Positions 18,661 to 63,539 of a stretch of 64,000 bases of DNA are shown piece by piece. The DNA is from a virus (lineage: Duplodnaviria > Heunggongvirae > Uroviricota > Caudoviricetes). The position numbers were made by a program, and so were the translations under genes. The DNA lies in the IMG/VR virus record IMGVR_UViG_3300032167_000028; one strand, given 5' to 3'. Under the pieces are notes generated by a model that made no database searches, was not told the DNA's origin, and saw only the letters and a list, made by a program, of their open reading frames with translations. Position 1 is the stretch's first letter, and every line of letters starts with the position of its first letter.

Positions 18661-20316
18661 TCACTGCTTTTGCCTATTCTGGATTCCATCCCAGATTTCA
18701 GTATACGCCTTGGCAAACGAAGCTTCATTACCAGTCCATCCATAGAGAATCGCGCAGCGCTCAGCCATCTCCGGAATGAGAACATTGTCATATCCAGCAG
18801 TCTGGATAGAGAACACGTTCACCTTTGGATTGACCAAGCGACGATAATCCTGAATGAGCTTAAAGACGTTGATATAGCCAGTATATGCAAATCTGCTGTT
18901 GTCAACCGCATATGTCTTGCCATATTCTCTGCACTGCGTACTAGTGCCATATAGACCGCCGTGTCCAGCCTGCTGATCGGAATAAATAAAGATATTATCC
19001 CAATGCTCCTTATTGTTAATGGCATTCTTAAAGAATTCCCAAATGCCACCTTCAGTAGAGCCACCAACATCATTGTCGCCGCGCTTGGAGATTTCCTTTG
19101 CCTGAGACAATACGCCGCGACGCTTGGAGATTGGTGCAACCTTCAGTCTGTCGCCAAACTTGCCAACATAACCTTCATCAGAGCATGCGGCAGTAATAAC
19201 AGAGGAAAGATTGTCGATTTCAGCGACGCGAACAGAGCCATATTCACTGTTAACCGTACCCCAAGCTGAACCAGAGTTATCGGACAAACACATGGTTTTG
19301 CCCTTCAGCTTCGGATAATTGTCCATTGCAATATCCATGCACTCTTCAAGCGCATTGATAATAATAGGCTTGTGATTACATGAGCTGCTTTCAACCGCCT
19401 TGAGCGCAGAATAATAGCGGAACGGAAACTGCTTACCAGTCAGAACTCCGTCCTTCACTTTATTCATGTACTTCATGCAGAATGCAGAATCGTTCACTTC
19501 AGTGAAGACACCGCGAATATTGCGCAGCAGCGCCATGTGTCCCATGTCAATGGTGTCGAAGATTTCCTTCCAGGACTTACCTTGAGAGCGAAGATTCTCC
19601 CAAGTCTTCTGATCGGTATCAACAGCAATCGTACCGGTCTTCATCAGCTCGTCAATTACAGGAGAATTGGCATGACACAGACGCACCGCGTTAATCAAGC
19701 CAATTTCATGATTCTTATACTTTGCCAGATGATAGCGCTTTGAAGAAGAAATCTTCTTTGCCCAAGAACGCTTGAGAATAGACGGCATACGATTCTTTTT
19801 GCCGCTGTTCTTATACATGAAATATGCCATCTGGCTCATCGGTTCATCTGCACGAGACATCACAGTCTGGTTGATTTCGTCAAATACACCCGGATGCGTC
19901 TGCGTAAAATACTGACGCTTGGGATGCATGGCAGCTCTGACCATGATGACCTGCGGATTCAGACGCATATTGAAGTCCTTGCGAAGCGCGATCGCCCAAG
20001 CGAGTGTACCTTCAAAGTCATAATCCAGCGCCTTATCAATGGCAGCTTCCATGATCTGCTCGGTATTCATGCCATCGTATTTGCTCGGCATGATGGTAAA
20101 GCCCTTTACAAGCTTGTGCTCACAATATTTGCCGCTGCGCTTGCCGTCGCGATAATAAGACGGCTCACCGAAGATAGACGAAGCCGTGATCATCTTGAGC
20201 GTATCAAGGGGGTTAATCTTGTATGAATCGCCGCCCATAAAATTGGTAACGGTTTCATCAAGCCTAAGAGAATTCTGCTGATGCATCTCAGCAACTGCTT
20301 TAGACATCTTGCTCAT
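18661..20316 (-). CDS. TROVE-domain (Ro60/Rsr-like) RNA-binding protein with vWA domain
   Basis: NFMGG, FGEPSYY, HMALLRNIRG, GKQFPFRYYSA, CLSDNSGS (MIDAS), IYSDQQ; start taken at MSKMSK with GGAG RBS. Confidence 0.88.
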   Translation of the reverse strand: MSKMSKAVAEMHQQNSLRLDETVTNFMGGDSYKINPLDTLKMITASSIFGEPSYYRDGKRSGKYCEHKLVKGFTIMPSKYDGMNTEQIMEAAIDKALDYDFEGTLAWAIALRKDFNMRLNPQVIMVRAAMHPKRQYFTQTHPGVFDEINQTVMSRADEPMSQMAYFMYKNSGKKNRMPSILKRSWAKKISSSKRYHLAKYKNHEIGLINAVRLCHANSPVIDELMKTGTIAVDTDQKTWENLRSQGKSWKEIFDTIDMGHMALLRNIRGVFTEVNDSAFCMKYMNKVKDGVLTGKQFPFRYYSALKAVESSSCNHKPIIINALEECMDIAMDNYPKLKGKTMCLSDNSGSAWGTVNSEYGSVRVAEIDNLSSVITAACSDEGYVGKFGDRLKVAPISKRRGVLSQAKEISKRGDNDVGGSTEGGIWEFFKNAINNKEHWDNIFIYSDQQAGHGGLYGTSTQCREYGKTYAVDNSRFAYTGYINVFKLIQDYRRLVNPKVNVFSIQTAGYDNVLIPEMAERCAILYGWTGNEASFAKAYTEIWDGIQNRQKQ

Positions 20317-20332
20317 AATTGAGCTCCTTTCA

Positions 20333-20515
20333 TCAATAATTAGGTCTATACCAAGGTCCATCAAAAGAATCATCTACACACTGCGTAGCAAGACAACATG
20401 GACAGATCAGATAATCGACAGCTAAGCGAACCCTGCCGTCATTTCTTCGATCTTTAAACCACACTGGTTCCATTTGAACTCCACACTCATTGCATACAAT
20501 GTCAGCTAATGTCAT
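20333..20515 (-). CDS. small zinc-ribbon protein
   Basis: CNEC...CPCC; AGGAGG RBS. Confidence 0.55.
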   Translation of the reverse strand: MTLADIVCNECGVQMEPVWFKDRRNDGRVRLAVDYLICPCCLATQCVDDSFDGPWYRPNY

Positions 20516-20535: not shown

Positions 20536-20940
20536 TGGTGGAGATGACGGGAATCGAACCCGTGTCCAAATTACAAACCTTCAAAAACGTACTTACGCAA
20601 TAGTCATTGTTTCGAGTGTTCGATTGCTAACTGACAAAAAGCAATCATGGAAGCCAAACCCAATGACAGGTCATATCCATTTAAGGGTGCACTGAAGTGC
20701 CATCCACCACGCAGTTTAATTTGCCCGCAAACTGAGAAAACGGGTGTCGATATTCTATCTTTGATCCTCATATGCTTACCGAATATCAGGTGCATCATTT
20801 TGGAGGTCAGTCTCGCTTACGCGAGAGCGAAGACCGGAGTACGGAAAAAGTTGAGATTTATTCTCTGTCTTTGATCCTTAACGCGGATCATTCGTGCGTG
20901 TTCTTGCTTATTTGCAACCTGTCGAAACCAAAACATCCCC
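20536..20940 (-). ncRNA. ssrA: tmRNA
   Basis: 5' GGGGATGTTTTGGTTTCGACAGG; 3' GGTTCGATTCCCGTCATCTCCACCA; internal tag frame ending ...RTPVFALA-TAA. Confidence 0.93.
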
Positions 20941-21218: not shown

Positions 21219-21359
21219 AAGACACATTAGTTTTATTATTTACGCGCTCTAACCAACTGAGCTAATTCCCACACTCTAGTGGGAATATAGGACTCGAACC
21301 TACGACCTCGTGCTCCCTAAGCATTAATTAAACTTGAAAAGAATTGCTGTATGTGTCTT
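21219..21359 (-). ncRNA. CAGCAA-module RNA copy E carrying a permuted tRNA-Pro(AGG)-like body (YrlA-like order)
   Basis: AAGACACAT/ATGTGTCTT stem; GC-TTAGGGA-GCACG, T-arm, looped acceptor ATTCCCA/TGGGAAT, D-arm, CGT. Confidence 0.8.
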
Positions 21360-26496: not shown

Positions 26497-27100
26497 AAAG
26501 GATAATTTGTTTAATAAATCACTAGACTTTCGCCTTACCCCAATAATTCTTCTAACATATTCAGGCACCGAGGAAATAAGACTGAGCATAAAGGAGCGAC
26601 CGATATACTTCTTACCCCAAGAGGTTTCCCTCTCAATTCTCGTATGGGACTGACTACCCAATACCTTTCACCAATCATTCAGTAAAAGAAATCAATTTGT
26701 ATTTAATACTAACAACTAATTAAACAAAACTTGATAACTTACCGTCTTAGGCTACTTAGACTTTAAACCAATCTTATAGGACATTTCTATCCATCACGAC
26801 GAATCTGCTTATTGGCTTTTCCAAGGTTTGCCACAGTCACCAGCTAAGACCTAACTTGGATTCGTTGCGGAGTTACCCGCCCTTCTATTACGCAGACGAT
26901 TGGAATAATCCCTTTGTTAGCGAACACCAGAGCACATCCTCTTAACATTAGAAGTTTCTTCATATCGCATAACATCACTGTTTCTGCGGCCGCGTTTTAT
27001 GGCTATCGTCATAAAACGTATGACTGTTGTACGAGGATTCTCAGCACGTTGATTAGACGCTCTGCACTGAGTTAATCATTTATTAAACAAATTATCCTTT
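26497..27100 (-). ncRNA. large (~600 nt) structured ncRNA candidate, ROOL-like
   Basis: Perfect 23-bp inverted repeat at the two ends (26497-26519 / 27078-27100), own promoter at 27117-27145, U-tract after the 3' arm, internal GNRA hairpins, no credible ORF. Confidence 0.6.
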
Positions 27101-41911: not shown

Positions 41912-42114
41912 TAACCGTTCTCCTTTAATTTATAAGCTTCAAGAGCGGCAAGTTTTGCTCTTAGCATAGTAGGATCAGGTTCAAGATCTTCATATCTAGC
42001 AAGTTTGTCACAAACTTTACAAATCCATTCATCAAAATCTTGTCGTGTAAAATTACGAGGAATTGCGGGACAAACCTCTCCATCATTGCGACGCCAAGTA
42101 AGTCTCTTAGCCAA
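41911..42114 (-). CDS. hypothetical protein
   Basis: RLT...KLARYED pattern common in phages. Confidence 0.6.
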   Translation of the reverse strand: MAKRLTWRRNDGEVCPAIPRNFTRQDFDEWICKVCDKLARYEDLEPDPTMLRAKLAALEAYKLKENG

Positions 42115-42991
42115 TAAACTCTACCTCCCTCTTTTCCCACTTACATTGCATAAAACAAGAACCTGAAGCAATTGCATTATTCAGCTTCTTTTCTATTTCC
42201 TTAACATCAGAAGACTTCTTAATACTGCGGCCCTGAGTAATATATCTAATAGCCCACATTACCATAGTATCAAAAGTATCGAAATACTTTACCTTACCAG
42301 CACAAGACCACTTATACTGCCAATTTGTCTCTTTTGTAGCACCGGTATCAGCGTCCATCTTATTTGCCGGCCAATTAATAAATACCTCTGGAGCACGGCT
42401 ACTACTGGTCTTAGGCTTCTTAAATCTGGTACTCGGCATTGCCGCGAGTCGCTCAGAATCCTCAGGAGTACAATGATTGCAAAGTTCTTTCATTACAACA
42501 CAAAGCATTTCAGCATCTTCCAGAGCATTGTGATGCTGAGGCTCATTATCCTCTTTAATAAGAGAATAGATTTTCTTTAGAGCAAGTGTTTCAAAGGAGG
42601 GAAAATAAGATTGTGCAGTAGAGGAGTAATCTGTAAGATTACAACGAACATAATCACAGAACATTCGGGCATCGAAAGAAGTGAGATACTTTCCAGTTGC
42701 ACGAAGAAAGTCTCCATCAGAATTACCATAACAATAAAACTGAGGAAGTGCTTCGCCGCAAGTGCTTTTTACATACTGATAAAAATTTTCAAAAGCCTCG
42801 TTAGCGGTAGGAGCATTACTAAGCATTTCGCTAGTAATACCAGTAAGATCAGTAATAAAATTCGTAAGTCTTTCTCCCCGCTTAGAGGGCTGAGACAAAG
42901 TGTAAAACTTGTCTCCATTATCATTAATACAACCGATACTAATGATGCGGCCCGAGAACTGAAGAGCTTCAAAATCAACATAGAAATTCAT
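42107..42991 (-). CDS. DEDDh 3'-5' exonuclease
   Basis: VDFEA, ISIG, LTGI, HNALEDA. Confidence 0.85.
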   Translation of the reverse strand: MNFYVDFEALQFSGRIISIGCINDNGDKFYTLSQPSKRGERLTNFITDLTGITSEMLSNAPTANEAFENFYQYVKSTCGEALPQFYCYGNSDGDFLRATGKYLTSFDARMFCDYVRCNLTDYSSTAQSYFPSFETLALKKIYSLIKEDNEPQHHNALEDAEMLCVVMKELCNHCTPEDSERLAAMPSTRFKKPKTSSSRAPEVFINWPANKMDADTGATKETNWQYKWSCAGKVKYFDTFDTMVMWAIRYITQGRSIKKSSDVKEIEKKLNNAIASGSCFMQCKWEKREVEFIG

Positions 42992-44172: not shown

Positions 44173-44469
44173 TTAAGTTGATTTTCGAGCGTATCTGTCA
44201 AGGATATTTTTATAACAATAGGATTCATGTTTCGGTTTCTCCGTACAAATCATACTAAGAATACGTTCCTTATAAATTAAATCAATACCGCCGCATTCTG
44301 ACATAAACATAAACATATCATGGCATTCAGCGATTAACTTACTGTTAAGAGTAACAATGGGCGTGCGATCAGTAACAGGATCTCTATGTGCTCCACGAAA
44401 TTCTATATTATAATGCTTCCCAAAAGCTGACTTTGGCAATCCATCAAAGAAAACTTTTTCATTATACAT
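44173..44469 (-). CDS. hypothetical protein
   Basis: ORF track. Confidence 0.5.
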   Translation of the reverse strand: MYNEKVFFDGLPKSAFGKHYNIEFRGAHRDPVTDRTPIVTLNSKLIAECHDMFMFMSECGGIDLIYKERILSMICTEKPKHESYCYKNILDRYARKST

Positions 44470-45346
44470 GCGGCATTACCTCTTCAATATAACTACGTTC
44501 TTGACTAAAAATTGGAATATTTTGATCAATAGTCCATTTTTTACGCATAACTTCGGTAAATTCAGGCTCTCTATTAAAATCATAATTAAAATTTACGTTT
44601 ACAAGAACCTTAGTATCTTTTTTAACAATACAAGATCCACGCTTGTATGAAATAGGATAATTATTCCAATTAATATCCTTTTCAGTTAATAGTTTGTTCT
44701 GAAGCTCATTACAATTTAAACCCTGAAGCTCATTATGAGAAAATACACTCTGAGCTACCATCTGAATAGAATTGCGAGTGGCATCTTGCTGACGCCAGAT
44801 AAAATAATTCACTACTTCATCTTCTGGCAGTACAAAAGCACGAGCATCAAAAAGTGCACCATTTCGGCTGGCTTTATCATAGGCATGAAAAAGTCGATTC
44901 TGCAATTCTCGCTTTTCTTCTTTTTCATATGGTTCGTCAAACATAGCCCATGCTTCATAATCCATATCATATTCATCTACTAAATTATTCCATTCACGAT
45001 TAAAAGCAAGCGTCGCCATGGATGCGGTAATACTGGCAAGTTTTTGTAGATTGTTACCAAACCAAGGTTCGGTTTCAATAGTATCATTATTGGTTAGTAG
45101 AATAGAAATTTCATCACTTTGCACATAAGCTAGCTTAGCTCCTTCAATTTGACTACAAAGTCTCATGGCTGTAGTTTGCATACAGGAAATAAGCATGTCA
45201 TCAAAAGGACGCTTAAATCCCTTAGTAAAACTATGGAAAGCCTTACCATCTACACGAATAATTACAGGCATACGCTTTGGAAGGTACATACGATAACTAT
45301 TTTCGTATCCCTTCATGCGATCGCCAAGAGAATCACGGTTTGGCAT
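44462..45346 (-). CDS. thg1: tRNA(His) guanylyltransferase Thg1-like protein
   Basis: RVDGKAFH, YVQSDEIS, FDARAF, YFIWRQQDA.RNS, KRG. Confidence 0.92.
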   Translation of the reverse strand: MPNRDSLGDRMKGYENSYRMYLPKRMPVIIRVDGKAFHSFTKGFKRPFDDMLISCMQTTAMRLCSQIEGAKLAYVQSDEISILLTNNDTIETEPWFGNNLQKLASITASMATLAFNREWNNLVDEYDMDYEAWAMFDEPYEKEEKRELQNRLFHAYDKASRNGALFDARAFVLPEDEVVNYFIWRQQDATRNSIQMVAQSVFSHNELQGLNCNELQNKLLTEKDINWNNYPISYKRGSCIVKKDTKVLVNVNFNYDFNREPEFTEVMRKKWTIDQNIPIFSQERSYIEEVMPHV

Positions 45347-45662
45347 TTTGCTTCTCCTTTTCCTCTTTGGTCTGACCAAAGAAACTATCAAAATATACTG
45401 AAAATGGATCGTTTAAATTAACTTCCTTTACATCCTCAGTCCAAGCATCACAATTCCGCATGTAAGATTTTTCAGGAAGCTCTTTACCATTTTTACATTT
45501 AAAAGAAGTCCAGCCTTTACGATGACCACAAGTATGGCAAGTACGCTGAGCCTTGTTAAAAACGCAATCTCGCTCATGTTTCTCTATTTCTGCCTTAGGT
45601 CCTGTTTTTTCACAATAATCACACTGATATACTGGCTGCATCGGTTTTCTCCTTAAATTCAA
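45333..45662 (-). CDS. Cys-rich hypothetical protein
   Basis: CDYC, CHTC. Confidence 0.5.
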   Translation of the reverse strand: MNLRRKPMQPVYQCDYCEKTGPKAEIEKHERDCVFNKAQRTCHTCGHRKGWTSFKCKNGKELPEKSYMRNCDAWTEDVKEVNLNDPFSVYFDSFFGQTKEEKEKQNAKP

Positions 45663-52065: not shown

Positions 52066-53535
52066 TTAAACTGGATTCTCTTCATTAAGAACCTCCTGAG
52101 CCTCTTCCATATCTGGAGCATCGGCAGTTTCCTTAACAATGCCCTCAAGTACCTTGAAGCTATGGTTCTTATGCTTATAAACAGAGATATTTGGCTTATT
52201 TACAATACGAGCAACTACACCCTCACGAATATGAGTACCATCAACAGTGGAAGGACCATCAAAGTACTGTTCTACCTTACGAAGAACATACTCGCCTGGA
52301 GATACGACAAAGGTATCATCTTCTCCATTACCATCGGTATCCATACCCAAATCTGGAATCATAAAGGTTTCAAAGTGTGGAACAACATTGATACCCATCT
52401 GCTCACAACGATAACGCATCTGATCTGGAGATAGCTCAGTAACGAAACCATCTTCAGATACCTGAGTCATACGATATATATAAACATTACAACGTGGCTT
52501 TAGAATATCGTTAGGATCAGCCTGCCAAGTAACACTATCCTCGTTGAGAGTAATAGCTGATAGAGGCTCGTAATCACCCTTTGGATCACAACCATAAGAG
52601 AAAGTAGTGGTCTCACCATATAGCTTTACAAATTCCTTATCCTGAATCTTCTTATTACTACAAGAAGCCATAATAGGAGAATTTTCATTTACAAAGCCAA
52701 CAATCTCATAATAGGCAACCTCGCCCTTATGCAACTTACCCTCAAACTTCTTAGCCATGGCCTGACGGAAGGAGTTATCCTCATAGAAGCCGTCATTATG
52801 CTTTTCGTCAAGAACCACACGACGAGTACCAGTAACATAATCATACTCAGTATATACCTTGCCTGGACGACGTAGAATCTTATCAAGTAGAGTACGATTC
52901 TTCTGCTTATTTACAGGTAGATAACCGGTACGGCCGGAAGTACCGTGAAGCTTTTCAGTTAGTTCAACTACATCGCCACACTTAAAAGCGTCAAGATGAT
53001 AAGCAAGCTGCTCAGTATCAACATGCTCATAGAAAGTTGGTGCATGATTTGCCTTTGCACGCTTCATGCCACCACTACCAATGCTAACGCCGCCGACCTT
53101 ACGACGTGGAATATACTTCTTACAAATCTCAATACCGCCTAGAGTAGTAATCTGATCACCAACCTTTAGATCAGAAACAGTAGTAAATTCTGCCAGAGAA
53201 GTAATTGGTAGCAATAGACCATCAGACTTTGCACCACGAAGGTTAATTGCCTTAACATTACGCTTAGTTGGGCTTAGATAACCGCCACAACGATTACCTT
53301 CTTCATCCTTACGCTCAACAAGATCATTAACACGACAGAACTCTTCACTTAGCTGACCATCGGTTGGGAAATATACACACATCTGGCCAACCTTATAATC
53401 CAGACCAACGATTACATCATTACCAAATACGGTAGCAATTTGTAGTCGGTCTGCATTTGGATGCTTACGTAGCTCCTTAATGGAAACAATATAACCACAA
53501 TAAGACATTATTTTTCTCCTTTCATTATAGAGCAA
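52066..53535 (-). CDS. RNA ligase (Rnl2/DRB0094-like) with N-terminal OB-fold
   Basis: HPNADRLQ, LRG.KS.GL, TEKLHGTS (KxxG), YEIVG, REGVV, YKHK...F. Confidence 0.82.
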   Translation of the reverse strand: MLYNERRKIMSYCGYIVSIKELRKHPNADRLQIATVFGNDVIVGLDYKVGQMCVYFPTDGQLSEEFCRVNDLVERKDEEGNRCGGYLSPTKRNVKAINLRGAKSDGLLLPITSLAEFTTVSDLKVGDQITTLGGIEICKKYIPRRKVGGVSIGSGGMKRAKANHAPTFYEHVDTEQLAYHLDAFKCGDVVELTEKLHGTSGRTGYLPVNKQKNRTLLDKILRRPGKVYTEYDYVTGTRRVVLDEKHNDGFYEDNSFRQAMAKKFEGKLHKGEVAYYEIVGFVNENSPIMASCSNKKIQDKEFVKLYGETTTFSYGCDPKGDYEPLSAITLNEDSVTWQADPNDILKPRCNVYIYRMTQVSEDGFVTELSPDQMRYRCEQMGINVVPHFETFMIPDLGMDTDGNGEDDTFVVSPGEYVLRKVEQYFDGPSTVDGTHIREGVVARIVNKPNISVYKHKNHSFKVLEGIVKETADAPDMEEAQEVLNEENPV

Positions 53536-55754: not shown

Positions 55755-55849
55755 GTGGGTAGGGTAGGATTCGAACCTACATCAAGGAATGTTTCACTCA
55801 CATATACTCCTTCTAAGGTGAGAAGCTTTACCAATTAAGCTACCTACCC
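55755..55849 (-). tRNA. aberrant tRNA-like gene, anticodon undetermined
   Basis: Acceptor GGGTAGG/CCTACCC, canonical D- and T-arms; expanded, poorly paired anticodon/variable region; ends ACA. Confidence 0.55.
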
Positions 55850-57950: not shown

Positions 57951-58095
57951 TAAAAGATCAATTATCTAACGTTCTTTCATATATCTTCCTCCCGCGGACT
58001 GATGATGGTGAGAATAATTAAAATAGTTAAAAATAACTCCATAGTACACCTTTAAAAATACCACCCATTAGGTTTAACGCTAACAGGTGGTCTAC

Positions 58096-58172
58096 TGGTA
58101 GGGACGCTGGGATTCGAACCCAGGACCACCACTTTATAAGAATGGCACTCTAACCGGCTGAGTTACGTCCCC
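58096..58172 (-). tRNA. trnI: tRNA-Ile(TAT)
   Basis: Cloverleaf, CCATT CTTATAA AGTGG, A73-CCA. Confidence 0.88.
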
Positions 58173-58187
58173 TTAGTGTGAGTTTCC

Positions 58188-59297
58188 TCACACGGTATAA
58201 CGATTTAGAATGGAAGAATTAACCTTTTCCAGAGTCATTCGAGCTGGCTTAAAACGCTTATGCTCTTCATTACGCTTAGCCTTCTCTTCGTTGCTAAGTT
58301 CCCAATCATCCTCGGTATCACGCTCAAGGATAATCTTTTCCTTTGGAACACAAAGTTCGCCATCCATGATACAAACATCCTTAGGATTGAATCTTACCCA
58401 ATGACGATCCTTTAGGTTATTAACCCAGAAGCTTGCGTTCTGATTACTATACAGATCAATACGAGTGCTATATGCAGTATACTCAGTACCATCCTCAAGA
58501 TAAACCACAACATCAAACATTACGTCACGAGTACGAGTGAGATTAAGTTCATTGAGTGTTTCTTCAACACTGTATCCCTGATTAAGTTCAAATACAATTG
58601 CACGAAGATAATCATAAGTAATATCCACTGTATGAGCAAAATGGATAATACGCTCGATTACATTTTGATACTGCGGCAGGAGATTATCCATAAGATACGC
58701 AGTAATCTCTTCATCGGTAGGAGAACCAAGATTGAAATGATAGTGGAAGCGGCCCGGTCGATTGATAAGGCAATCATTTAGCTTGTAAGTATCATTACAA
58801 GTAACAATAAATAGCCTATGACCACCATCAAAACCATCAAAAAGTGTTAGCATCTCTGCCTGAGGATCCATCTCATCAGACTTACCAAATGTCTTTTCAA
58901 ACTCATCAAAAAGAACAATAGTTTCCTGCTCAATAGAACTTAGAAAGTTGCCAATGCCTGGAACATAACCTGAAACAATTAGAACAGGATAACCAAGCCG
59001 GATACCCTCTGCGGCAAGTAGCTTTGCAAATACAGACTTACCAATGCCTTTCTGACCACTTAGAATGACACCAAAATTGCGATTAGAAGCCATATAAGAA
59101 CGCATTACCTTTTCTACTCGACGCATATGACTACCGTAGATTTTTTCCTCTGAAGTTACAATATCCTTACGAGCAGTAAGATAAAAACCTGTCATCTTAT
59201 TGAACTCTACATCATAAGTACCAACCGGAAGAAACTGAGAAGTCTTTACATTATCACTATAAATTTGGAAGCGACCACCAGAACTAACTACGTTCAT
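58188..59297 (-). CDS. AAA+ ATPase
   Basis: GQKGIGKS, VLFDEFEK, TCND, NRPGRFHY. Confidence 0.88.
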   Translation of the reverse strand: MNVVSSGGRFQIYSDNVKTSQFLPVGTYDVEFNKMTGFYLTARKDIVTSEEKIYGSHMRRVEKVMRSYMASNRNFGVILSGQKGIGKSVFAKLLAAEGIRLGYPVLIVSGYVPGIGNFLSSIEQETIVLFDEFEKTFGKSDEMDPQAEMLTLFDGFDGGHRLFIVTCNDTYKLNDCLINRPGRFHYHFNLGSPTDEEITAYLMDNLLPQYQNVIERIIHFAHTVDITYDYLRAIVFELNQGYSVEETLNELNLTRTRDVMFDVVVYLEDGTEYTAYSTRIDLYSNQNASFWVNNLKDRHWVRFNPKDVCIMDGELCVPKEKIILERDTEDDWELSNEEKAKRNEEHKRFKPARMTLEKVNSSILNRYTV

Positions 59298-59315
59298 AAA
59301 ATTCTCCTTTCAAAA

Positions 59316-59432
59316 TGGGCCGAAGGTCGGAATCGAACCGACTCACGCGGGTTAACAGCCAAAGATCATTGCAGACACGGTATATTTCTATACCACCTAA
59401 AGTACGCCGCTCTACCATTGAGCTACTTCGGC
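59316..59432 (-). tRNA. tRNA-Asn(GTT)-like gene interrupted by a 44-nt insert in the anticodon stem
   Basis: GCG|insert 59361-59404|GG-CTGTTAA-CCCGC; insert = GGTATA-GAAA-TATACC hairpin + CTGCAA; 3' end short of a full NCCA. Confidence 0.72.
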
Positions 59433-59435
59433 ATA

Positions 59436-59570
59436 TGGTGGGAGAGGTTGGATTTGAACCAACATGAGCATTACTCGGAGGATTTACAGTCCTTTGTTTT
59501 TGCTGTCGAGGAATTTTGCAATACCCGTATTCCGGATTTTCCTCTGCGTCTGACATTCCGCCACTCTCGC
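59436..59570 (-). tRNA. tRNA-Tyr(GTA)-like gene interrupted by a ~50-nt insert in the anticodon stem
   Basis: GAG|insert ~59492-59541|GA-CTGTAAA-TCCTC; insert contains hairpin + CAGCAAA. Confidence 0.75.
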
Positions 59571-59579
59571 CAAATAAAA

Positions 59580-59945
59580 GGCATACTTTTACGGAGTCGC
59601 CACAACCGCGTGGATTGTCCGTTTTCTTAGGGAGTCCACGATAGATTTTTAGTTTTGTAGTTCCGGACCTACGCCACACGGACCTTCGCCCACGATAGGG
59701 AGGGCAATGCTCCCTCATGGTTATTAGCCACCCAACTGTTGGACTATCGTATTAGGTCGGAGTTTCACTCCAATCCACCACCTATTTGTTTTTGCGGTCT
59801 AAATAAGAACGACCGAGGATGAAGTTATTACACTTCACTCATTCCACCACTTGCTTGTTGTTAATAGTCTAAGCAAGAACGACACCCGATCTGCTTACCG
59901 TTCTGCTACTGTTTCCATTGTTTCCGCTCACAGTTTCAGTACAGG
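59580..59945 (-). ncRNA. structured non-coding region (3' part of a large RNA candidate)
   Basis: GC-rich, hairpins such as GGAGT-GAA-ACTCC and GAGGGAG/CTCCCT; no credible ORF. Confidence 0.45.
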
Positions 59946-59948
59946 GAC

Positions 59949-60025
59949 TGGTGACACCACGGGGATTCGAACCCTCGATTACTGGCGTGAGAGGCCAGTC
60001 TCCTAAGCCGTTAGAGGATGGTGCC
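59949..60025 (-). tRNA. trnE: tRNA-Glu(CTC)
   Basis: CTGGC CTCTCAC GCCAG; CCA. Confidence 0.9.
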
Positions 60026-60029
60026 ATAA

Positions 60030-60550
60030 AAGAGGATGCTGCATCCTTGCCGCAGCTCCCGGGTCTGCCGGGTAGGAATCGAACCTACAAACTTCCTCAA
60101 ATAAAAGAGCCTGTTTCGCAATCGCGGCGGGTCATTCCGCTGGCTCCTCGGTTTCTTACGTCCGGCATACCGGATACTCTTTCGCGTTATGGATGAACCG
60201 TACCAAGGAGTTTCACGTTCTCACTCCTCAACGATGGGATACTCCCCACACGAGTACCATTGTGTAAGTAAGGCGGTACATCTCCTTTAATGGCAACCTA
60301 ACAGCGTACTCAGCTTTCGCCTTATGGGTGTTTCGGGGATTCTGGTTTGTTGTCGTAATACAATCCCTTTTTAAAAATATTGAGATAACAAAAGAATGCT
60401 TTCTTAGGGAGCAGTTGCTCTCGGTGCCCTTTATCGACTAACAGAGCTTTTGCGTTAGACAAACCTTATCGTACCTACTCATTCTGCGGGCAATTAGAGC
60501 AACCTAGCCCGCTCTCCTTTTTGGAAGAGTTTATTTATCTCTCTCAACCT
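60030..60550 (-). ncRNA. structured non-coding region with a tRNA-like T-arm near its 3' end
   Basis: Starts just below promoter 60560-60588; GCGAAAG hairpins; GTAGG TTCGATT CCTAC-CCGGCA pairing with TGCCGG. Confidence 0.5.
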
Positions 60551-60559
60551 TACATATAT

Positions 60560-60588
60560 ATTATATATTAAATTTTTAAAATTGTCAA
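60560..60588 (-). promoter_or_regulatory. sigma70-type promoter driving the ncRNA/tRNA block
   Basis: TTGACA-17-TATAAT. Confidence 0.85.
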
Positions 60589-61817
60589 TTATTTAGAAGT
60601 TCAAATACAACTTCAATATTCTTCTTCTTCCACGCTTTCTTAAAACGACGTGCTTCACGATTAAAAATTCCGCCGCGTCTTAGGGTTTGAAATTTAAGTG
60701 TCATTTTTTCAATAAGAGCAGATTCAACCATACTAGAATCCATACGCGGTCTACGACGAGCCGTACAAAGAGTTTGATTTTCTTCCTTTAAACGATGATT
60801 CTCATTTTCATAATTAGAAATTTGCTGTTTATATTCACAAGATTTCTGATGGACATATTCTTCATAATACTGCAAACGCTTTTCGTATTCTCTTACAAGC
60901 CGCCTATAATTTTCAAGTTCTTCGGAAAAACGTTTATTTTCAAGTTCTTCAGAAAAATGTTTGAAATCAACAGAATTAGTGTTATTATTATATTTAGAAC
61001 AAGACTGAACAATACATCCTCTAATTTCTTCTAAAGAAGTCATTAAATTGGCAAGAGCAACAACAATTTGAAAATTCTTACTTTTATCAATAACTGAACC
61101 ATCAGTTGTCCAAAAATCATAAGACTGAGAGGTTTTCTTAAAGAAATTGGTTAGCTTAGTTTTATCACCACGGGAATCAATACTAAGAATATTTTGAATT
61201 TCCTTAATACTCTTGGGCAGCGGCAAAATCTGCTTCAAGTTACTAAGTACTTTATAGGTAATTTCATAATCATTATCGTGAGCAAAAATTTCCTTATATT
61301 CAATAAAATAACCAAGATAAGGCAAAATAGGTAGAATAAAAGACAATAGTAAGTCGCAATCCTGAAGAGCGGTATGCGTTTGCTGAATAGAACCATTGGT
61401 AATGTCATTAACAATAGCTTCAAGTCCAGTTTGTGTATTATTAGGAAAAAGAATTTTTACCAGATTAATAGAATCATAGAAAGGAATCTGTGGAAAAGAA
61501 ACTCCAGTCTGCTGATGCAAAAGTTCAAGCTGACGCTTATCTTCATTGGCATTATGTGCAATAATAAAATCAATATTATTAGTGCTTAAATCATTAGCAA
61601 TAATATTGGCACCCTCAGCACTAGAAATGAAATGAGCATCAGGGTCTGCTTCATAAAATCTCTTTTTAGTTTTATAGGTATTTTCGCCAATAATGTTACG
61701 ATTTTCAAAGTTATTTTGAATAATCAAATTTCTTCGAAGCAAAACTTCCTGATTATGGTTTACAAGAATATAACCATAATTATATGTCTTTTCCGTATCA
61801 AAAATAAGATAATTCAT
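60585..61817 (-). CDS. DEDDh 3'-5' exonuclease with C-terminal coiled coil
   Basis: IFDTE, IAHNA..D, HTALQDC. Confidence 0.8.
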   Translation of the reverse strand: MNYLIFDTEKTYNYGYILVNHNQEVLLRRNLIIQNNFENRNIIGENTYKTKKRFYEADPDAHFISSAEGANIIANDLSTNNIDFIIAHNANEDKRQLELLHQQTGVSFPQIPFYDSINLVKILFPNNTQTGLEAIVNDITNGSIQQTHTALQDCDLLLSFILPILPYLGYFIEYKEIFAHDNDYEITYKVLSNLKQILPLPKSIKEIQNILSIDSRGDKTKLTNFFKKTSQSYDFWTTDGSVIDKSKNFQIVVALANLMTSLEEIRGCIVQSCSKYNNNTNSVDFKHFSEELENKRFSEELENYRRLVREYEKRLQYYEEYVHQKSCEYKQQISNYENENHRLKEENQTLCTARRRPRMDSSMVESALIEKMTLKFQTLRRGGIFNREARRFKKAWKKKNIEVVFELLNN

Positions 61818-61904: not shown

Positions 61905-63422
61905 TTACTTAATCACTGCGTAACGCTCCTTATTGAGACACTCCATCATCAGATCATAACCGGTCTTGCCGCTCATGATAGTCTGGAAGATAGAAGGAGA
62001 AAAGCCACTCACAAAGCTAATAGCATCCTTGCCGAGCATAGGAATGTTATTAGTGCGAGCATTGACGTTCCAGTAAATAAGGTGCGGCATCTGATAACCG
62101 GAGTTCTGCCACTTACGAGCGATGCCCTCCATTAGAGTGGTATTGCTCTGATAACGAAGGTTGTAATCCTTCGCCTGATCAAACTCCATATCACTGATGA
62201 CAATGATGTTCTTAGGCATATCGTCCTGTGGAACACGGTTGCGAATAGCGGTATTCAGAACCATGTCGAACGCGGCCTCAATATTGGTATTCTGGCAGAG
62301 ATTAGTAGATACGATACGATGTACCTTATCACAGAAATCAACACCAGTACACTCAATTAGCTGAGGACGAGAGCTGAAGGAGATGTAATGACCCGCGAAC
62401 GGACCCTTTGCCTTCTCCGCACAGTACAGGCCAAGGCTTACTGCAACATCAATAGGCTTAACATCAGCACTGCCGCAGGTCATAGAACCAGAGGTATCGA
62501 CCATACAGAGAGCGTTGAAGCTGGCACCATCGAAATAATCAGCAAGATTATCCCAATACTTATTCACCATGAGACGATCAACATTGTCAAGTGCCACAGA
62601 GCTGCGGCCATAGCCGTAATAGCTATTGCTACGCATTACCTTGATGGCTTCCTTAACAACCTCGTAAGGATACAGAGTCTTGGCATTTACCTTAGTAGTA
62701 GTATCCTTAGCGAACTTCTCATACTTCGTCTTGATAATATCACGACGAGCAAAAGCGTTCTTATAAATCATGCCAGCCTTAGAAGGAATCTTATCAAACT
62801 CGATTTCATTCCAACGATTCTCAGACATGAGCTTTTCAACAATATTGATACGAGTACGAAGCACAGAAAGAATCTGGCGGTACTGCTTATGGGTTAGACC
62901 AAGATGCTGACGAGTAATGTCACCAAGGTGACGAGTCTCCTCAGAAGAAGCATTCTCAGACTTTAGCCACTTAGCAAGTAGAGATGGAGTCTTACACTGT
63001 ACGTCAAGCATAAGCTGCTTCTTGATAAAAGCGAAAATCGCAGTATCAATAGCCTGATTCATACCAACCATACAGTAGAGATCATCCCAGCGACCAAACT
63101 CTGGAATATACTCAAGATTGCGAAGAACCGCCTCTGGATGATGAACAGCAAGCCACTTTAGATTCTCACGGAAGAAACGACGCTCACCCTGGCCGCCACG
63201 CACATCACGAATATAGAATAGACACTTTAGTGCATACTCTGGATTCTCGTTGTATGCAAGGGCAAACATATTCACTACGTCATCAACAGAACGCTGACGC
63301 ATAGCTGCGCCCATTGCGAACATATCAAGAAGCTTAGACTGAGTAGTATAATGCTTTACAGCACCATTCTCAGTACGACCGATATTAGTACTAGACTTTA
63401 GACCGTTCATAAGAGTATTCAT
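61905..63422 (-). CDS. DUF2828-family TROVE-like protein with vWA domain
   Basis: TENGA, LF..RD.RGG.GER, GRWDD, AKWL, VDTSGSM (MIDAS), NTNI.AAF, ISDMEFD, YWN, SGFS. Confidence 0.85.
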   Translation of the reverse strand: MNTLMNGLKSSTNIGRTENGAVKHYTTQSKLLDMFAMGAAMRQRSVDDVVNMFALAYNENPEYALKCLFYIRDVRGGQGERRFFRENLKWLAVHHPEAVLRNLEYIPEFGRWDDLYCMVGMNQAIDTAIFAFIKKQLMLDVQCKTPSLLAKWLKSENASSEETRHLGDITRQHLGLTHKQYRQILSVLRTRINIVEKLMSENRWNEIEFDKIPSKAGMIYKNAFARRDIIKTKYEKFAKDTTTKVNAKTLYPYEVVKEAIKVMRSNSYYGYGRSSVALDNVDRLMVNKYWDNLADYFDGASFNALCMVDTSGSMTCGSADVKPIDVAVSLGLYCAEKAKGPFAGHYISFSSRPQLIECTGVDFCDKVHRIVSTNLCQNTNIEAAFDMVLNTAIRNRVPQDDMPKNIIVISDMEFDQAKDYNLRYQSNTTLMEGIARKWQNSGYQMPHLIYWNVNARTNNIPMLGKDAISFVSGFSPSIFQTIMSGKTGYDLMMECLNKERYAVIK

Positions 63423-63539
63423 ATTTTATTTATCTCCTTTTCTTTTTTGTCAGTTGCTTGGACAAGCAACATTGTTTCTTAACTTTATGTATATATTATA
63501 ACTGAAATTTTCAAATAAGTCAAAAATACAAACTGATTT

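What the first reader, a model, noticed from the sequence alone, without database searches (positions are those of the whole stretch)
59316..59570. Two adjacent tRNA genes carry 44-50 nt CAGCAA-type inserts at the same anticodon-stem position
Seen: the tRNA-Asn-like gene has a 44-nt insert (hairpin GGTATA-GAAA-TATACC, then GTGT-CTGCAA) between positions 29 and 30. The neighbouring tRNA-Tyr-like gene has a ~50-nt insert (hairpin, then TCGA-CAGCAAA) compatible with the same position. This is the linear equivalent of permuted copy E, which also breaks at 29/30. Intact Asn and Tyr tRNAs exist elsewhere (28568, 24566), and both interrupted copies have small defects. Established: bacterial tRNA introns are self-splicing group I/II introns of hundreds of nt; short protein-spliced introns are archaeal/eukaryotic. 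Inference: either a new miniature, protein-dependent tRNA intron or tRNA scaffolds displaying the protein-binding handle.
Basis: partly seen in the sequence, partly recalled or inferred. Interest (0 to 1): 0.82.

Follow-up and report, generated by a model that had tools for sequence, protein, structure and literature searches.

The report
tRNA-shaped partner RNAs of Ro60-like protein
Two phage genes that look like asparagine and tyrosine tRNAs split by 44-50 extra bases are most likely not tRNAs awaiting splicing but tRNA-shaped small RNAs whose extra arm is the docking handle for a Ro60-like ring protein encoded nearby, one case of a widespread family that I found in neither Rfam nor the papers searched.

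Summary
On the minus strand, an Asn(GUU)-type gene (59318-59432) and a Tyr(GUA)-type gene (59436-59571) each carry an insert in the 5' strand of the anticodon stem. The inserts are 44 nt (59361-59404) and 50 nt (59492-59541). Deleting each in silico gives a clean tRNA.

The insert is not chance. IMG/VR phage contigs hold at least 64 distinct versions, in tRNA-shaped genes with about 20 different anticodons. All share one plan:
- an A-rich lead;
- a covarying 6-9 bp hairpin;
- 1-4 nt, then CAGCAA or CUGCAA;
- a U-rich tail.

A covariance model built only from other phages ranks the two window inserts first and second in the window.

In 74 of 91 loci a DUF2828 gene lies on the same strand, at a median distance of 463 nt. 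The window's copy (61905-63422) has a predicted Ro60 fold.

Arguments against splicing:
- Intact Asn tRNAs coexist where checked; the window also has an intact Tyr tRNA.
- Some family members carry anticodons that do not fit their tRNA body.
- One relative has no anticodon loop.
- There is no bulge-helix-bulge motif.

Best reading: Y-RNA-like tRNA mimics. This scan has already reported the same family in at least 33 other genomes.

The parts
59318..59432 (-). Asn(GUU)-type tRNA-shaped gene with an insert in the anticodon stem
   Evidence: Rfam tRNA 45.3 bits with a skipped stretch. ARAGORN calls tRNA-Asn only after the insert is removed.
59361..59404 (-). 44-nt handle insert between positions 29 and 30: hairpin 59377-59396 with a GAAA loop, and CUGCAA at 59369-59374
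   Evidence: Sequence. R1 gives 20.6 bits, E 0.015, second-best hit in the window.
59436..59571 (-). Tyr(GUA)-type tRNA-shaped gene with a long variable arm, an encoded ACCA end, an extra or mismatched pyrimidine in the acceptor 5' strand, and an insert in the anticodon stem
   Evidence: The relative L271 has the same layout.
59492..59541 (-). 50-nt handle insert: hairpin GGGUAUU-GCAA-AAUUCCU at 59509-59526, then CGA, then CAGCAA at 59500-59505
   Evidence: R1 gives 28.1 bits, E 3.5e-4, best hit in the window, with its alignment shown. CAGCAA was located.
61905..63422 (-). DUF2828 + DUF7788/vWA protein (505 aa), Ro60-like; the likely binder of the handle
   Evidence: Pfam PF11443 at 9.4e-33 and PF25043 at 2.2e-43. 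The top 12 Foldseek PDB hits of the AF2 model are all Ro60/TROVE. The MIDAS residues D309, S311 and S313 are invariant.
60560..60588 (-). Consensus sigma-70-type promoter (TTGACA-17-TATAAT) that could drive the non-coding stretch holding tRNA-Glu and the two interrupted genes
   Evidence: 12 of 12 consensus positions match. This is a pattern match only.
58060..58091 (-). Terminator-like hairpin after tRNA-Ile(UAU); the likely end of the same transcription unit
   Evidence: This is a pattern match only.
21219..21359 (-). Permuted tRNA-Pro-like RNA (copy E) with the same handle split into its 5' and 3' ends; the circular permutation of the interrupted design
   Evidence: Sequence. A YrlA match of 32.5 bits, E 8.5e-4, covers its tRNA-like core.

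Best explanation
The two genes encode stable, unspliced small RNAs. They are Y-RNA analogues built on whole tRNA bodies.

How it would work:
- The tRNA part (acceptor, D and T arms, anticodon arm) gives the L-shape. It probably also gives RNase P/Z processing out of the long promoter-driven transcript.
- The 44-50 nt insert projects from the 5' strand of the anticodon stem. It is a handle made of a hairpin, 1-4 nt, and then single-stranded CAGCAA or CUGCAA.
- The phage's Ro60-like DUF2828/vWA protein (61905-63422) binds this handle.
- The particle would then present a tRNA look-alike, with a particular anticodon arm, to tRNA-binding partners. Candidates are nucleases, repair enzymes or synthetases.

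Shown here:
- the anatomy of both genes;
- conservation and covariation of the handle;
- linkage to DUF2828;
- the predicted Ro60 fold;
- redundancy with intact tRNAs.

Inferred:
- that DUF2828 binds the handle;
- that the RNA is not spliced;
- what the particle does.
For: 1. The family is wide.
- Pattern scans of IMG/VR gave at least 64 distinct inserts.
- Each sits in a tRNA-shaped gene with a 7-bp acceptor stem and a 5-bp T stem.
- The 5-bp anticodon stem is restored across a break that is usually at 28/29 or 29/30.

2. The hairpin covaries.
- 88.7% of cells are paired, against 56% in shuffles and 32-43% when partners are slid.
- 93 cells are compensated on both sides, against 30 in shuffles.
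- 0 of 500 shuffles reach the observed values.

3. The window's inserts belong to the family. They are the two top hits of model R1, which was built from other phages only.

4. The family is linked to DUF2828.
- 74 of 91 loci with an interrupted gene hold a DUF2828-like ORF within the fetched ~8.5 kb.
- The median distance is 463 nt.
- The strand is the same in 74 of 74.
- The RNA lies upstream of the gene in 66 of 74.
- At the level of whole records, 9 of 10 hold DUF2828, against 0 of 5 chance-match control records.
- Pfam TROVE is found in 0 of those 10 records.

5. The window's DUF2828 protein is predicted to have the Ro60 fold.
- Phage Ro60 with adjacent Y-like RNA genes is published (PMC12135203).
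- tRNA-mimicking YrlA RNAs are published (PMC4201824).

6. The interrupted genes are not needed as decoders.
- Intact tRNA-Asn genes coexist in the window and in all three other records checked.
- The window also has an intact tRNA-Tyr.

7. Some relatives could not decode even after removal of the insert.
- 13 distinct genes carry anticodon GCU on a short-variable-arm body.
- Anticodons AUG and AGG occur.
- In L271, the relative with the same Tyr-like plus second-gene tandem, the second gene has the handle in place of the whole anticodon loop.

8. The same genome holds the same handle on permuted tRNA bodies with closed acceptor stems and on bodies that are not tRNA-like.
Against:
- After removal of the insert, both window genes are near-perfect tRNAs with canonical 7-nt anticodon loops. 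A pure protein handle would not obviously need that.
- The phage encodes an RNA ligase and a Thg1-like enzyme, so sealing activity is available.
- In this window the DUF2828 gene is 2.3 kb away, not the usual ~0.5 kb.
- A second, TROVE-like protein (18661-20373) is also present and could be the binder here.
- Binding itself is inferred from linkage only.
Confidence: 0.65

Rival explanations
1. The inserts are a new class of miniature, protein-dependent tRNA introns. A phage or host endonuclease recognises the hairpin-CAGCAA module and cuts at both junctions, and the phage RNA ligase joins the halves to give working tRNA-Asn and tRNA-Tyr. Permuted copies would be matured by the same cut-and-join step.
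For: - Removal restores canonical tRNAs.
- The anticodon stem is restored at 5 of 5 pairs in every member parsed.
- The break position is nearly fixed, and the 5' junction is often CG|UA.
- Linear and permuted forms share one junction, as archaeal and red-algal BHB introns and permuted tRNAs do (established knowledge, PMC4090602).
- An RNA ligase (52066-53535) and a Thg1-like gene (44462-45391) are in the window.
Against: - Intact Asn tRNAs coexist in all four genomes checked; the window also has an intact Tyr tRNA.
- Bodies and anticodons that do not match, and a relative with no anticodon loop, cannot yield decoders.
- There is no bulge-helix-bulge complementarity: 3 of 64 against 7 expected.
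- No insert-less allele was found in 2.4 Mb of held phage DNA; the best uninterrupted look-alikes are 84-90% identical.
- The same handle sits on bodies that are not tRNA-like.
- The consistently linked gene is a Ro60-like RNA binder, not a nuclease or ligase.
Confidence: 0.12
2. The handle is a real protein-binding module, but its partner in this phage is not DUF2828. The partner would be another protein, for example the TROVE-like protein at 18661-20373 inside the tRNA island, or an RNA-repair enzyme.
For: - The window encodes a 570-aa protein with a weak Pfam TROVE match (E 1.2e-5), surrounded by handle RNAs.
- Here DUF2828 is 2.3 kb from the interrupted genes.
Against: - Pfam TROVE was found in 0 of 10 other records that carry interrupted genes, while DUF2828 was found in 9 of 10.
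- DUF2828 is the immediate same-strand neighbour in 74 of 91 loci.
Confidence: 0.1
3. The two genes are decaying tRNA pseudogenes hit by a small mobile or repeat element. Neither the RNA nor the insert has a function.
For: - Both are redundant with intact tRNAs.
- The Tyr-like acceptor stem is irregular and the Asn-like gene lacks an encoded CCA.
- Thermodynamic folding is unremarkable, with z-scores of -0.7 and -1.1.
Against: - All stems are intact.
- The hairpin covaries across 31 diverged members.
- The acceptor irregularity and the tandem layout recur in L271.
- Linkage to DUF2828 is near-universal.
Confidence: 0.04

Closest known systems
Ro60 (Rsr/TROVE) with YrlA-type Y RNAs of bacteria and phages (Rfam RF02553; Chen et al. 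2014, PMC4201824; Thermus phage phiLo Ro60 with Yrl1/Yrl2, PMC12135203)
   Same: - A ring-type HEAT-repeat plus vWA/MIDAS protein, by predicted fold.
- Small RNA genes that usually lie just upstream of the protein gene on the same strand.
- RNAs that combine a protein-binding stem module with a tRNA-like module (D arm, T arm, acceptor stem).
   Different: - The protein belongs to Pfam DUF2828/DUF7788, not TROVE.
- The handle is a hairpin followed by single-stranded CAGCAA, not the bulged Ro-binding helix or the CGAA motif.
- The handle is grafted into the anticodon stem of a complete, linear tRNA, so the RNA ends lie at the acceptor stem and a full anticodon arm is kept. YrlA has its ends in the Ro-binding stem and a capped acceptor stem.
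- Rfam's YrlA model scores only 24.7 bits here, against a gathering score of 69.
Protein-spliced tRNA introns of archaea and eukaryotes, including non-canonical positions and permuted tRNA genes (PMC4090602)
   Same: - A short insert (tens of nt) at a fixed position in the anticodon stem.
- Linear and permuted genes share one junction.
- Removal restores a cloverleaf.
   Different: - No bulge-helix-bulge motif.
- Bacterial-phage context.
- The genes are redundant.
- Some members have no usable anticodon.
- The linked gene is an RNA-binding ring protein, not a splicing endonuclease.
Class I RNAs of dictyostelid social amoebae (Rfam RF01414; Kjellin et al. 2021, PMC7919456)
   Same: - A short (~6 bp) covarying stem.
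- An unstructured conserved motif directly 3' of the stem's 5' strand. The paper gives its invariant positions as T3, C6, C9, A10 and A11 of 11, which fit xxUxxCxxCAA, that is UUACAGCAA.
- A variable remainder.
   Different: - Rfam gives no RF01414 match in this window (E up to 1 over 54-64 kb and up to 10 over 14-29.5 kb).
- In Class I RNAs the stem joins the RNA's ends; here it is a capped hairpin inside a tRNA.
- The known binder of Class I RNA is an RRM protein.
- The literal motif was recalled from memory, not read in the text.
Self-splicing group I introns in bacterial and phage tRNA genes (PMC3984707)
   Same: They interrupt the anticodon arm of a bacterial-type tRNA gene.
   Different: - Those introns are hundreds of nt long, sit in the anticodon loop and have a ribozyme core.
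- These inserts are 44-50 nt, and no intron family matched.

Membership tests
Ro60 / Y RNA (YrlA-type) particle | Ro60-type protein: HEAT-repeat ring (TROVE) plus vWA domain with MIDAS | tested here: met
   The top 12 Foldseek PDB hits of the AF2 model (pLDDT 69) are all Ro60/TROVE over 516-576 columns, E 6e-7 to 3e-5. The DxSxS motif is invariant. By sequence the protein is DUF2828 + DUF7788, not Pfam TROVE, and a profile search against PDB gave Ro60 only E 0.25.
Ro60 / Y RNA (YrlA-type) particle | RNA gene encoded next to the protein gene | tested here: met
   74 of 91 loci, median distance 463 nt, same strand in 74 of 74, RNA upstream in 66 of 74. In this window the distance is 2.3 kb, downstream and on the same strand.
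Ro60 / Y RNA (YrlA-type) particle | tRNA-like module with D arm, T arm and acceptor stem | tested here: met
   Rfam tRNA 45.3 bits. ARAGORN gives cloverleaves after removal of the insert.
Ro60 / Y RNA (YrlA-type) particle | Ro-binding module: a long stem formed by the RNA's 5' and 3' ends, holding the conserved Ro-binding site | tested here: not met
   The handle is an internal capped hairpin plus CAGCAA. YrlA scores 24.7 bits against a gathering score of 69, and that match spans the two genes.
Ro60 / Y RNA (YrlA-type) particle | Physical binding of the RNA by the protein | not testable with these tools
   Inferred from linkage only.
Protein-spliced (BHB) tRNA intron | Bulge-helix-bulge motif at the two junctions | tested here: not met
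   One of the two BHB registers was counted: 4-nt complementarity between the start of exon 2 and the 5' end of the insert occurs in 3 of 64 members, against 7 expected from shuffles. By eye, the window's Asn-like junctions show no such pairing in either register.
Protein-spliced (BHB) tRNA intron | Removal yields a functional tRNA that the genome needs | tested here: inconclusive
   The two window genes give clean cloverleaves. But intact copies exist, and family members include unusable anticodon-body pairs and a gene without an anticodon loop.
Protein-spliced (BHB) tRNA intron | Spliced RNA observed; splicing endonuclease present | not testable with these tools
No endonuclease search was run.
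Group I / group II self-splicing intron | Ribozyme core of hundreds of nt | tested here: not met
   The inserts are 44 and 50 nt. No intron family matched at E up to 1 over 54-64 kb.
Hairpin-CAGCAA handle family of phage tRNA-shaped RNAs (defined here and in earlier notes of this scan) | Covarying 6-9 bp hairpin, 1-4 nt, C(A/U)GCAA, a U-rich tail, then the lower anticodon stem and loop | tested here: met
   R1 was built without window sequences. It scores 28.1 bits (E 3.5e-4) and 20.6 bits (E 0.015), the top two hits in the window.
Dictyostelid Class I RNA (RF01414) | Match to the family model; 6-bp terminal stem plus an 11-nt motif | tested here: inconclusive
   No Rfam match. The invariant motif positions given in PMC7919456 fit UUACAGCAA.

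The most novel reading that the evidence does not exclude
The insert-bearing RNAs are working parts of translation or tRNA repair and not passive mimics. Either they are true tRNAs whose insert is removed by a so far unknown protein-dependent cut-and-join pathway in bacteria, or they are chargeable tRNAs that the Ro60-like protein holds and releases on demand, a gated tRNA reserve against host anticodon nucleases.
Probability: 0.12. Interest if true: 0.9.

Novelty: new variant of a known kind. Interest (0 to 1): 0.62.

Why it matters
- It would name the RNA partners of DUF2828, a Pfam family with no assigned function (five papers in the library mention it). It would also extend the Ro60/Y-RNA world to many gut, rumen and freshwater phages.
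- The linear, whole-tRNA members are a plausible intermediate between ordinary tRNA genes and the permuted YrlA-type mimics. Both topologies occur in this one genome, so the origin of tRNA-like Y RNAs becomes testable.
- tRNA finders miss these genes, and intron-minded readers would misfile them. A covariance model such as R1 would correct phage tRNA inventories.
- The varied anticodon arms on show suggest a bait or adaptor role towards anticodon-recognising enzymes. That bears on phage counter-measures to tRNA-cutting defences.

Tried and rejected
- The window's own record was not found: the phage GenBank collection gave no match to 58000-61000, and a 34-nt exact search of IMG/VR gave none. 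No whole genome is held.
- The search for related loci with the neighbouring AAA ATPase found no relatives.
- Thermodynamic folding alone is uninformative, with z-scores of -0.7 and -1.1.
- A wide deletion scan with ARAGORN was noisy and mis-called the Val(UAC) group as Tyr. I used the strict positional parse instead.
- The weak YrlA match at 59384-59490 (E 0.1) is an artefact. It joins the T arm of one gene to the D arm of the next.
- Reading the Tyr-like hairpin as GAGGAA/UUCCUC or GGAAU/AUUCC was replaced by the model's alignment, GGGUAUU-GCAA-AAUUCCU.
- The idea that the anticodons on show are queuosine-type (GUN) or t6A-type (NNU) was dropped. The sample was fixed by my search patterns.
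- Pfam TROVE as the linked protein was rejected: 0 of 10 records.
- The 'control' loci that hold DUF2828 are mostly handle RNAs that failed my strict parse, so they are not true negatives. The clean control is.

Full report
**What is there**

On the minus strand, two tRNA-shaped genes follow each other 4 nt apart.

The Asn-type gene (59432..59318):
- It has a 7-bp acceptor stem, normal D and T arms, and an anticodon arm GCG|GG-CUGUUAA-CCCGC.
- The arm is split between positions 29 and 30 by 44 nt (59404..59361).
- The insert reads 8 nt, an 8-bp hairpin with a GAAA loop, GU, CUGCAA and 8 nt.

The Tyr-type gene (59571..59436):
- It has a long variable arm, an encoded ACCA end, and a 50-nt insert (59541..59492) holding CAGCAA.
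- GGA stands both before and after the insert, so the break can be drawn anywhere from 28/29 to 31/32.

ARAGORN finds neither gene as written. After exact removal of the inserts it calls tRNA-Asn(gtt) and tRNA-Tyr(gta). Rfam's tRNA model reaches 45.3 bits on the Asn-type gene by skipping the insert.

**Is it more than chance?**

Two degenerate pattern scans of IMG/VR were run: D arm, gap, C(A/T)GCAA, gap, then the Asn anticodon loop or the T arm. They returned 45 and more than 111 stretches.

A strict positional parse kept 74 sequences with 64 distinct inserts.
- Every one has a 7-bp acceptor stem (two have 6 bp) and a 5-bp T stem.
- Every one has an anticodon stem restored at 5 of 5 pairs across a break that is usually at 28/29 or 29/30.
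- The anticodons include GUU (25), GCU (13), UAC (12), UGU, UUU, UCU, CCU, GAA, UGG, UCC, UUG, GAU, UAU, AGG and AUG.
- The insert always has the same plan: 5-13 A-rich nt, a 6-9 bp hairpin usually closed by a GNNN loop, 1-4 nt ending in A, then CAGCAA or CUGCAA, then 7-12 U-rich nt.

On a MAFFT alignment of 31 diverged members, the hairpin and the lower anticodon stem covary strongly.
- 88.7% of cells are paired, against 56% after shuffling and 32-43% when partners are slid.
- 93 cells are compensated on both sides, against 30.
- 0 of 500 shuffles reach the observed values.

Covariance model R1 was built from these 31 sequences, with none from the window. Run without filters over both strands of the window, it puts the Tyr insert first (28.1 bits, E 3.5e-4) and the Asn insert second (20.6 bits, E 0.015). 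Nothing else falls below E 0.5. Its alignment also settles the Tyr hairpin as GGGUAUU-GCAA-AAUUCCU, followed by CGA and CAGCAA.

**The linked protein**

Pfam DUF2828 was found in 9 of 10 IMG/VR records that carry an interrupted gene. The miss is a 16-kb fragment. It was found in 0 of 5 records that had matched my patterns by chance inside coding sequence. Pfam TROVE was found in 0 of the same 10 records.

A tblastn search with six DUF2828 proteins against all fetched loci gave the following:
- a DUF2828-like ORF in 74 of 91 loci with a parsed interrupted gene;
- a median distance of 463 nt (quartiles 326-839);
- the same strand in 74 of 74;
- the RNA gene upstream in 66 and downstream in 8.

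The window's own copy is 61905-63422 on the minus strand. It is 35-38% identical to three of those proteins and about 26% to the other two, and it matches DUF2828 plus DUF7788/vWA. It lies 2.3 kb upstream of the interrupted genes on the same strand.

An AlphaFold2 model from a six-sequence alignment has pLDDT 69 and pTM 0.62. Its twelve best PDB matches are all Ro60/TROVE structures aligned over nearly the full length. They include the Ro60 of Thermus phage phiLo. The MIDAS motif DxSxS is invariant.

Ro60 proteins with neighbouring Y-RNA genes are established in bacteria and phages, and YrlA Y RNAs mimic tRNA (PMC4201824). In phage phiLo, two Y-like RNA genes lie just upstream of Ro60 and bind it (PMC12135203).

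**Intron or handle?**

Several results speak against splicing.
1. The interrupted genes are redundant. Intact tRNA-Asn and tRNA-Tyr stand in the window. Intact tRNA-Asn genes stand in all three other records checked, two of them 96-100% complete.
2. Many family members could not become decoders.
   - Thirteen distinct genes carry a Ser-type GCU anticodon on a body with a short variable arm, which by established knowledge bacterial SerRS would not accept.
   - Near-identical bodies carry different anticodons: UGG against AUG, and GUU against UCU.
3. L271, from a 168.7-kb contig, has the same tandem as the window.
   - Its Tyr-type gene has an insert and the same kind of extra pyrimidine in the acceptor 5' strand.
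   - Three nt later comes a second tRNA-shaped gene, and there the handle replaces the whole anticodon loop.
4. There is no bulge-helix-bulge complementarity in the one register counted: 3 of 64 against 7 expected.
5. No insert-less allele turned up in 2.4 Mb of held phage DNA.
6. In this same genome the identical handle forms the termini of a permuted tRNA-Pro-like RNA with a capped acceptor stem (copy E, joined at CGU|GC, that is 29/30). It also forms the termini of RNAs whose bodies are not tRNA-like. Copy E's core gives a sub-threshold YrlA match (32.5 bits).

Some points still favour splicing.
- Both window genes give tidy cloverleaves after removal of the insert.
- The break site is fixed.
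- An RNA ligase and a Thg1-like enzyme are present in the window.

**Most likely mechanism**

A consensus promoter at 60588..60560 and a terminator-like hairpin at 58091..58060 bracket a unit on the minus strand (pattern matches only). In order, the unit holds:
- about 520 nt of non-coding sequence;
- tRNA-Glu(CUC);
- 376 nt of non-coding sequence;
- the two interrupted genes;
- an AAA-ATPase gene;
- tRNA-Ile(UAU).

I infer three steps:
1. RNase P and RNase Z release the two RNAs by their tRNA shape.
2. The insert stays in place.
3. The Ro60-like DUF2828 protein binds the hairpin-CAGCAA module.

The result would be a particle that displays a tRNA body with an Asn or Tyr anticodon arm.

What the particle then does is open. 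It could be bait for anticodon nucleases, an adaptor to a nuclease as in the Ro-Y-PNPase complex, or a platform for tRNA repair.

**Comparison and novelty**

The system works like Ro60 with YrlA, but it fails one defining feature of that family. The protein-binding module is not a terminal stem holding the known Ro-binding site, and Rfam's YrlA model does not reach threshold.

The handle resembles the stem-plus-motif of dictyostelid Class I RNAs (PMC7919456), but Rfam gives no match.

I found no Rfam family for the handle. No paper in the library gives DUF2828 a function, and none describes these inserts.

Earlier notes of this same scan report the same family in at least 33 other genomes and reach the same reading. 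My tests were run independently on this window and on IMG/VR.

I class the finding as a new variant of a known kind.

Noticed in passing
window 18661-20373 (-): A 570-aa protein inside the tRNA island has a weak Pfam TROVE match (E 1.2e-5). This phage may therefore carry two Ro60-type proteins: this one and the DUF2828 protein. Ten other handle-bearing records showed no TROVE match.
   Followed up: partly
window 26505-27095 (-) and 20536-20940 (-): The tRNA island holds a full-length ROOL RNA (337 bits, E 1.4e-77) and a tmRNA (88.3 bits).
   Followed up: no
window 59573-59948 (-) and 60026-60550 (-): Two long non-coding stretches flank tRNA-Glu(CUC) downstream of a perfect consensus promoter. 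The 376-nt stretch holds two similar modules (GUCGUUCUU..UAGAC..GGUGGUGGA). No Rfam family matched at E up to 1.
   Followed up: no
window 63453-63470 (-), leader of the DUF2828 mRNA: A 7-bp hairpin (GUUGCUU-GUCC-AAGCAAC) followed by UGACAAAAAA lies between the promoter (63523..63495) and the start codon. R1 scores it 13.1 bits (E 0.63). It may mimic the handle for autoregulation, or it may be chance.
   Followed up: partly
window 59476-59545 (-); L265; L271: In all three Tyr-type genes the full 5' strand of the anticodon stem stands before the insert, and its last 3 nt are repeated after it (GGA, GGA, GGU). Each repeat matches its own 3' strand, so two alternative registers of the stem are possible. 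The Asn-type genes do not show this.
   Followed up: no
window 59564-59571 (-); L271: The acceptor 5' strand of the Tyr-type gene has one extra or mismatched pyrimidine (GG-C-GAGAG here, GGG-U-AGGG in L271). It is conserved in kind, so it is unlikely to be decay.
   Followed up: partly
L271 (minus strand, just after its Tyr-type gene): The second gene of the tandem keeps the acceptor stem, D arm, T arm and a 5-bp anticodon stem (GGACU/AGUCC), but the whole loop is replaced by the hairpin-CUGCAA handle.
   Followed up: partly
L008 4666-4950 (+); L068 3735-4150 (+): Two interrupted genes lie side by side in one phage. Their inserts are nearly identical but their anticodons differ (Asn/Lys in L008; Arg(UCU) plus a second match not parsed in L068). 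Within a genome the handle is more alike than the tRNA bodies.
   Followed up: no
window 44462-45391 (-), 52066-53535 (-), 42107-42991 (-): Genes for a Thg1-like 3'-5' nucleotidyltransferase, an OB-fold RNA ligase and an RNase T-like exonuclease make up a tRNA or RNA repair set in the same window.
   Followed up: partly
window 55755-55849 (-): A tRNA-shaped gene that ARAGORN leaves unassigned (loop CUUAGAA) has a 22-nt extra arm. Rfam tRNA scores it 53.9 bits.
   Followed up: no
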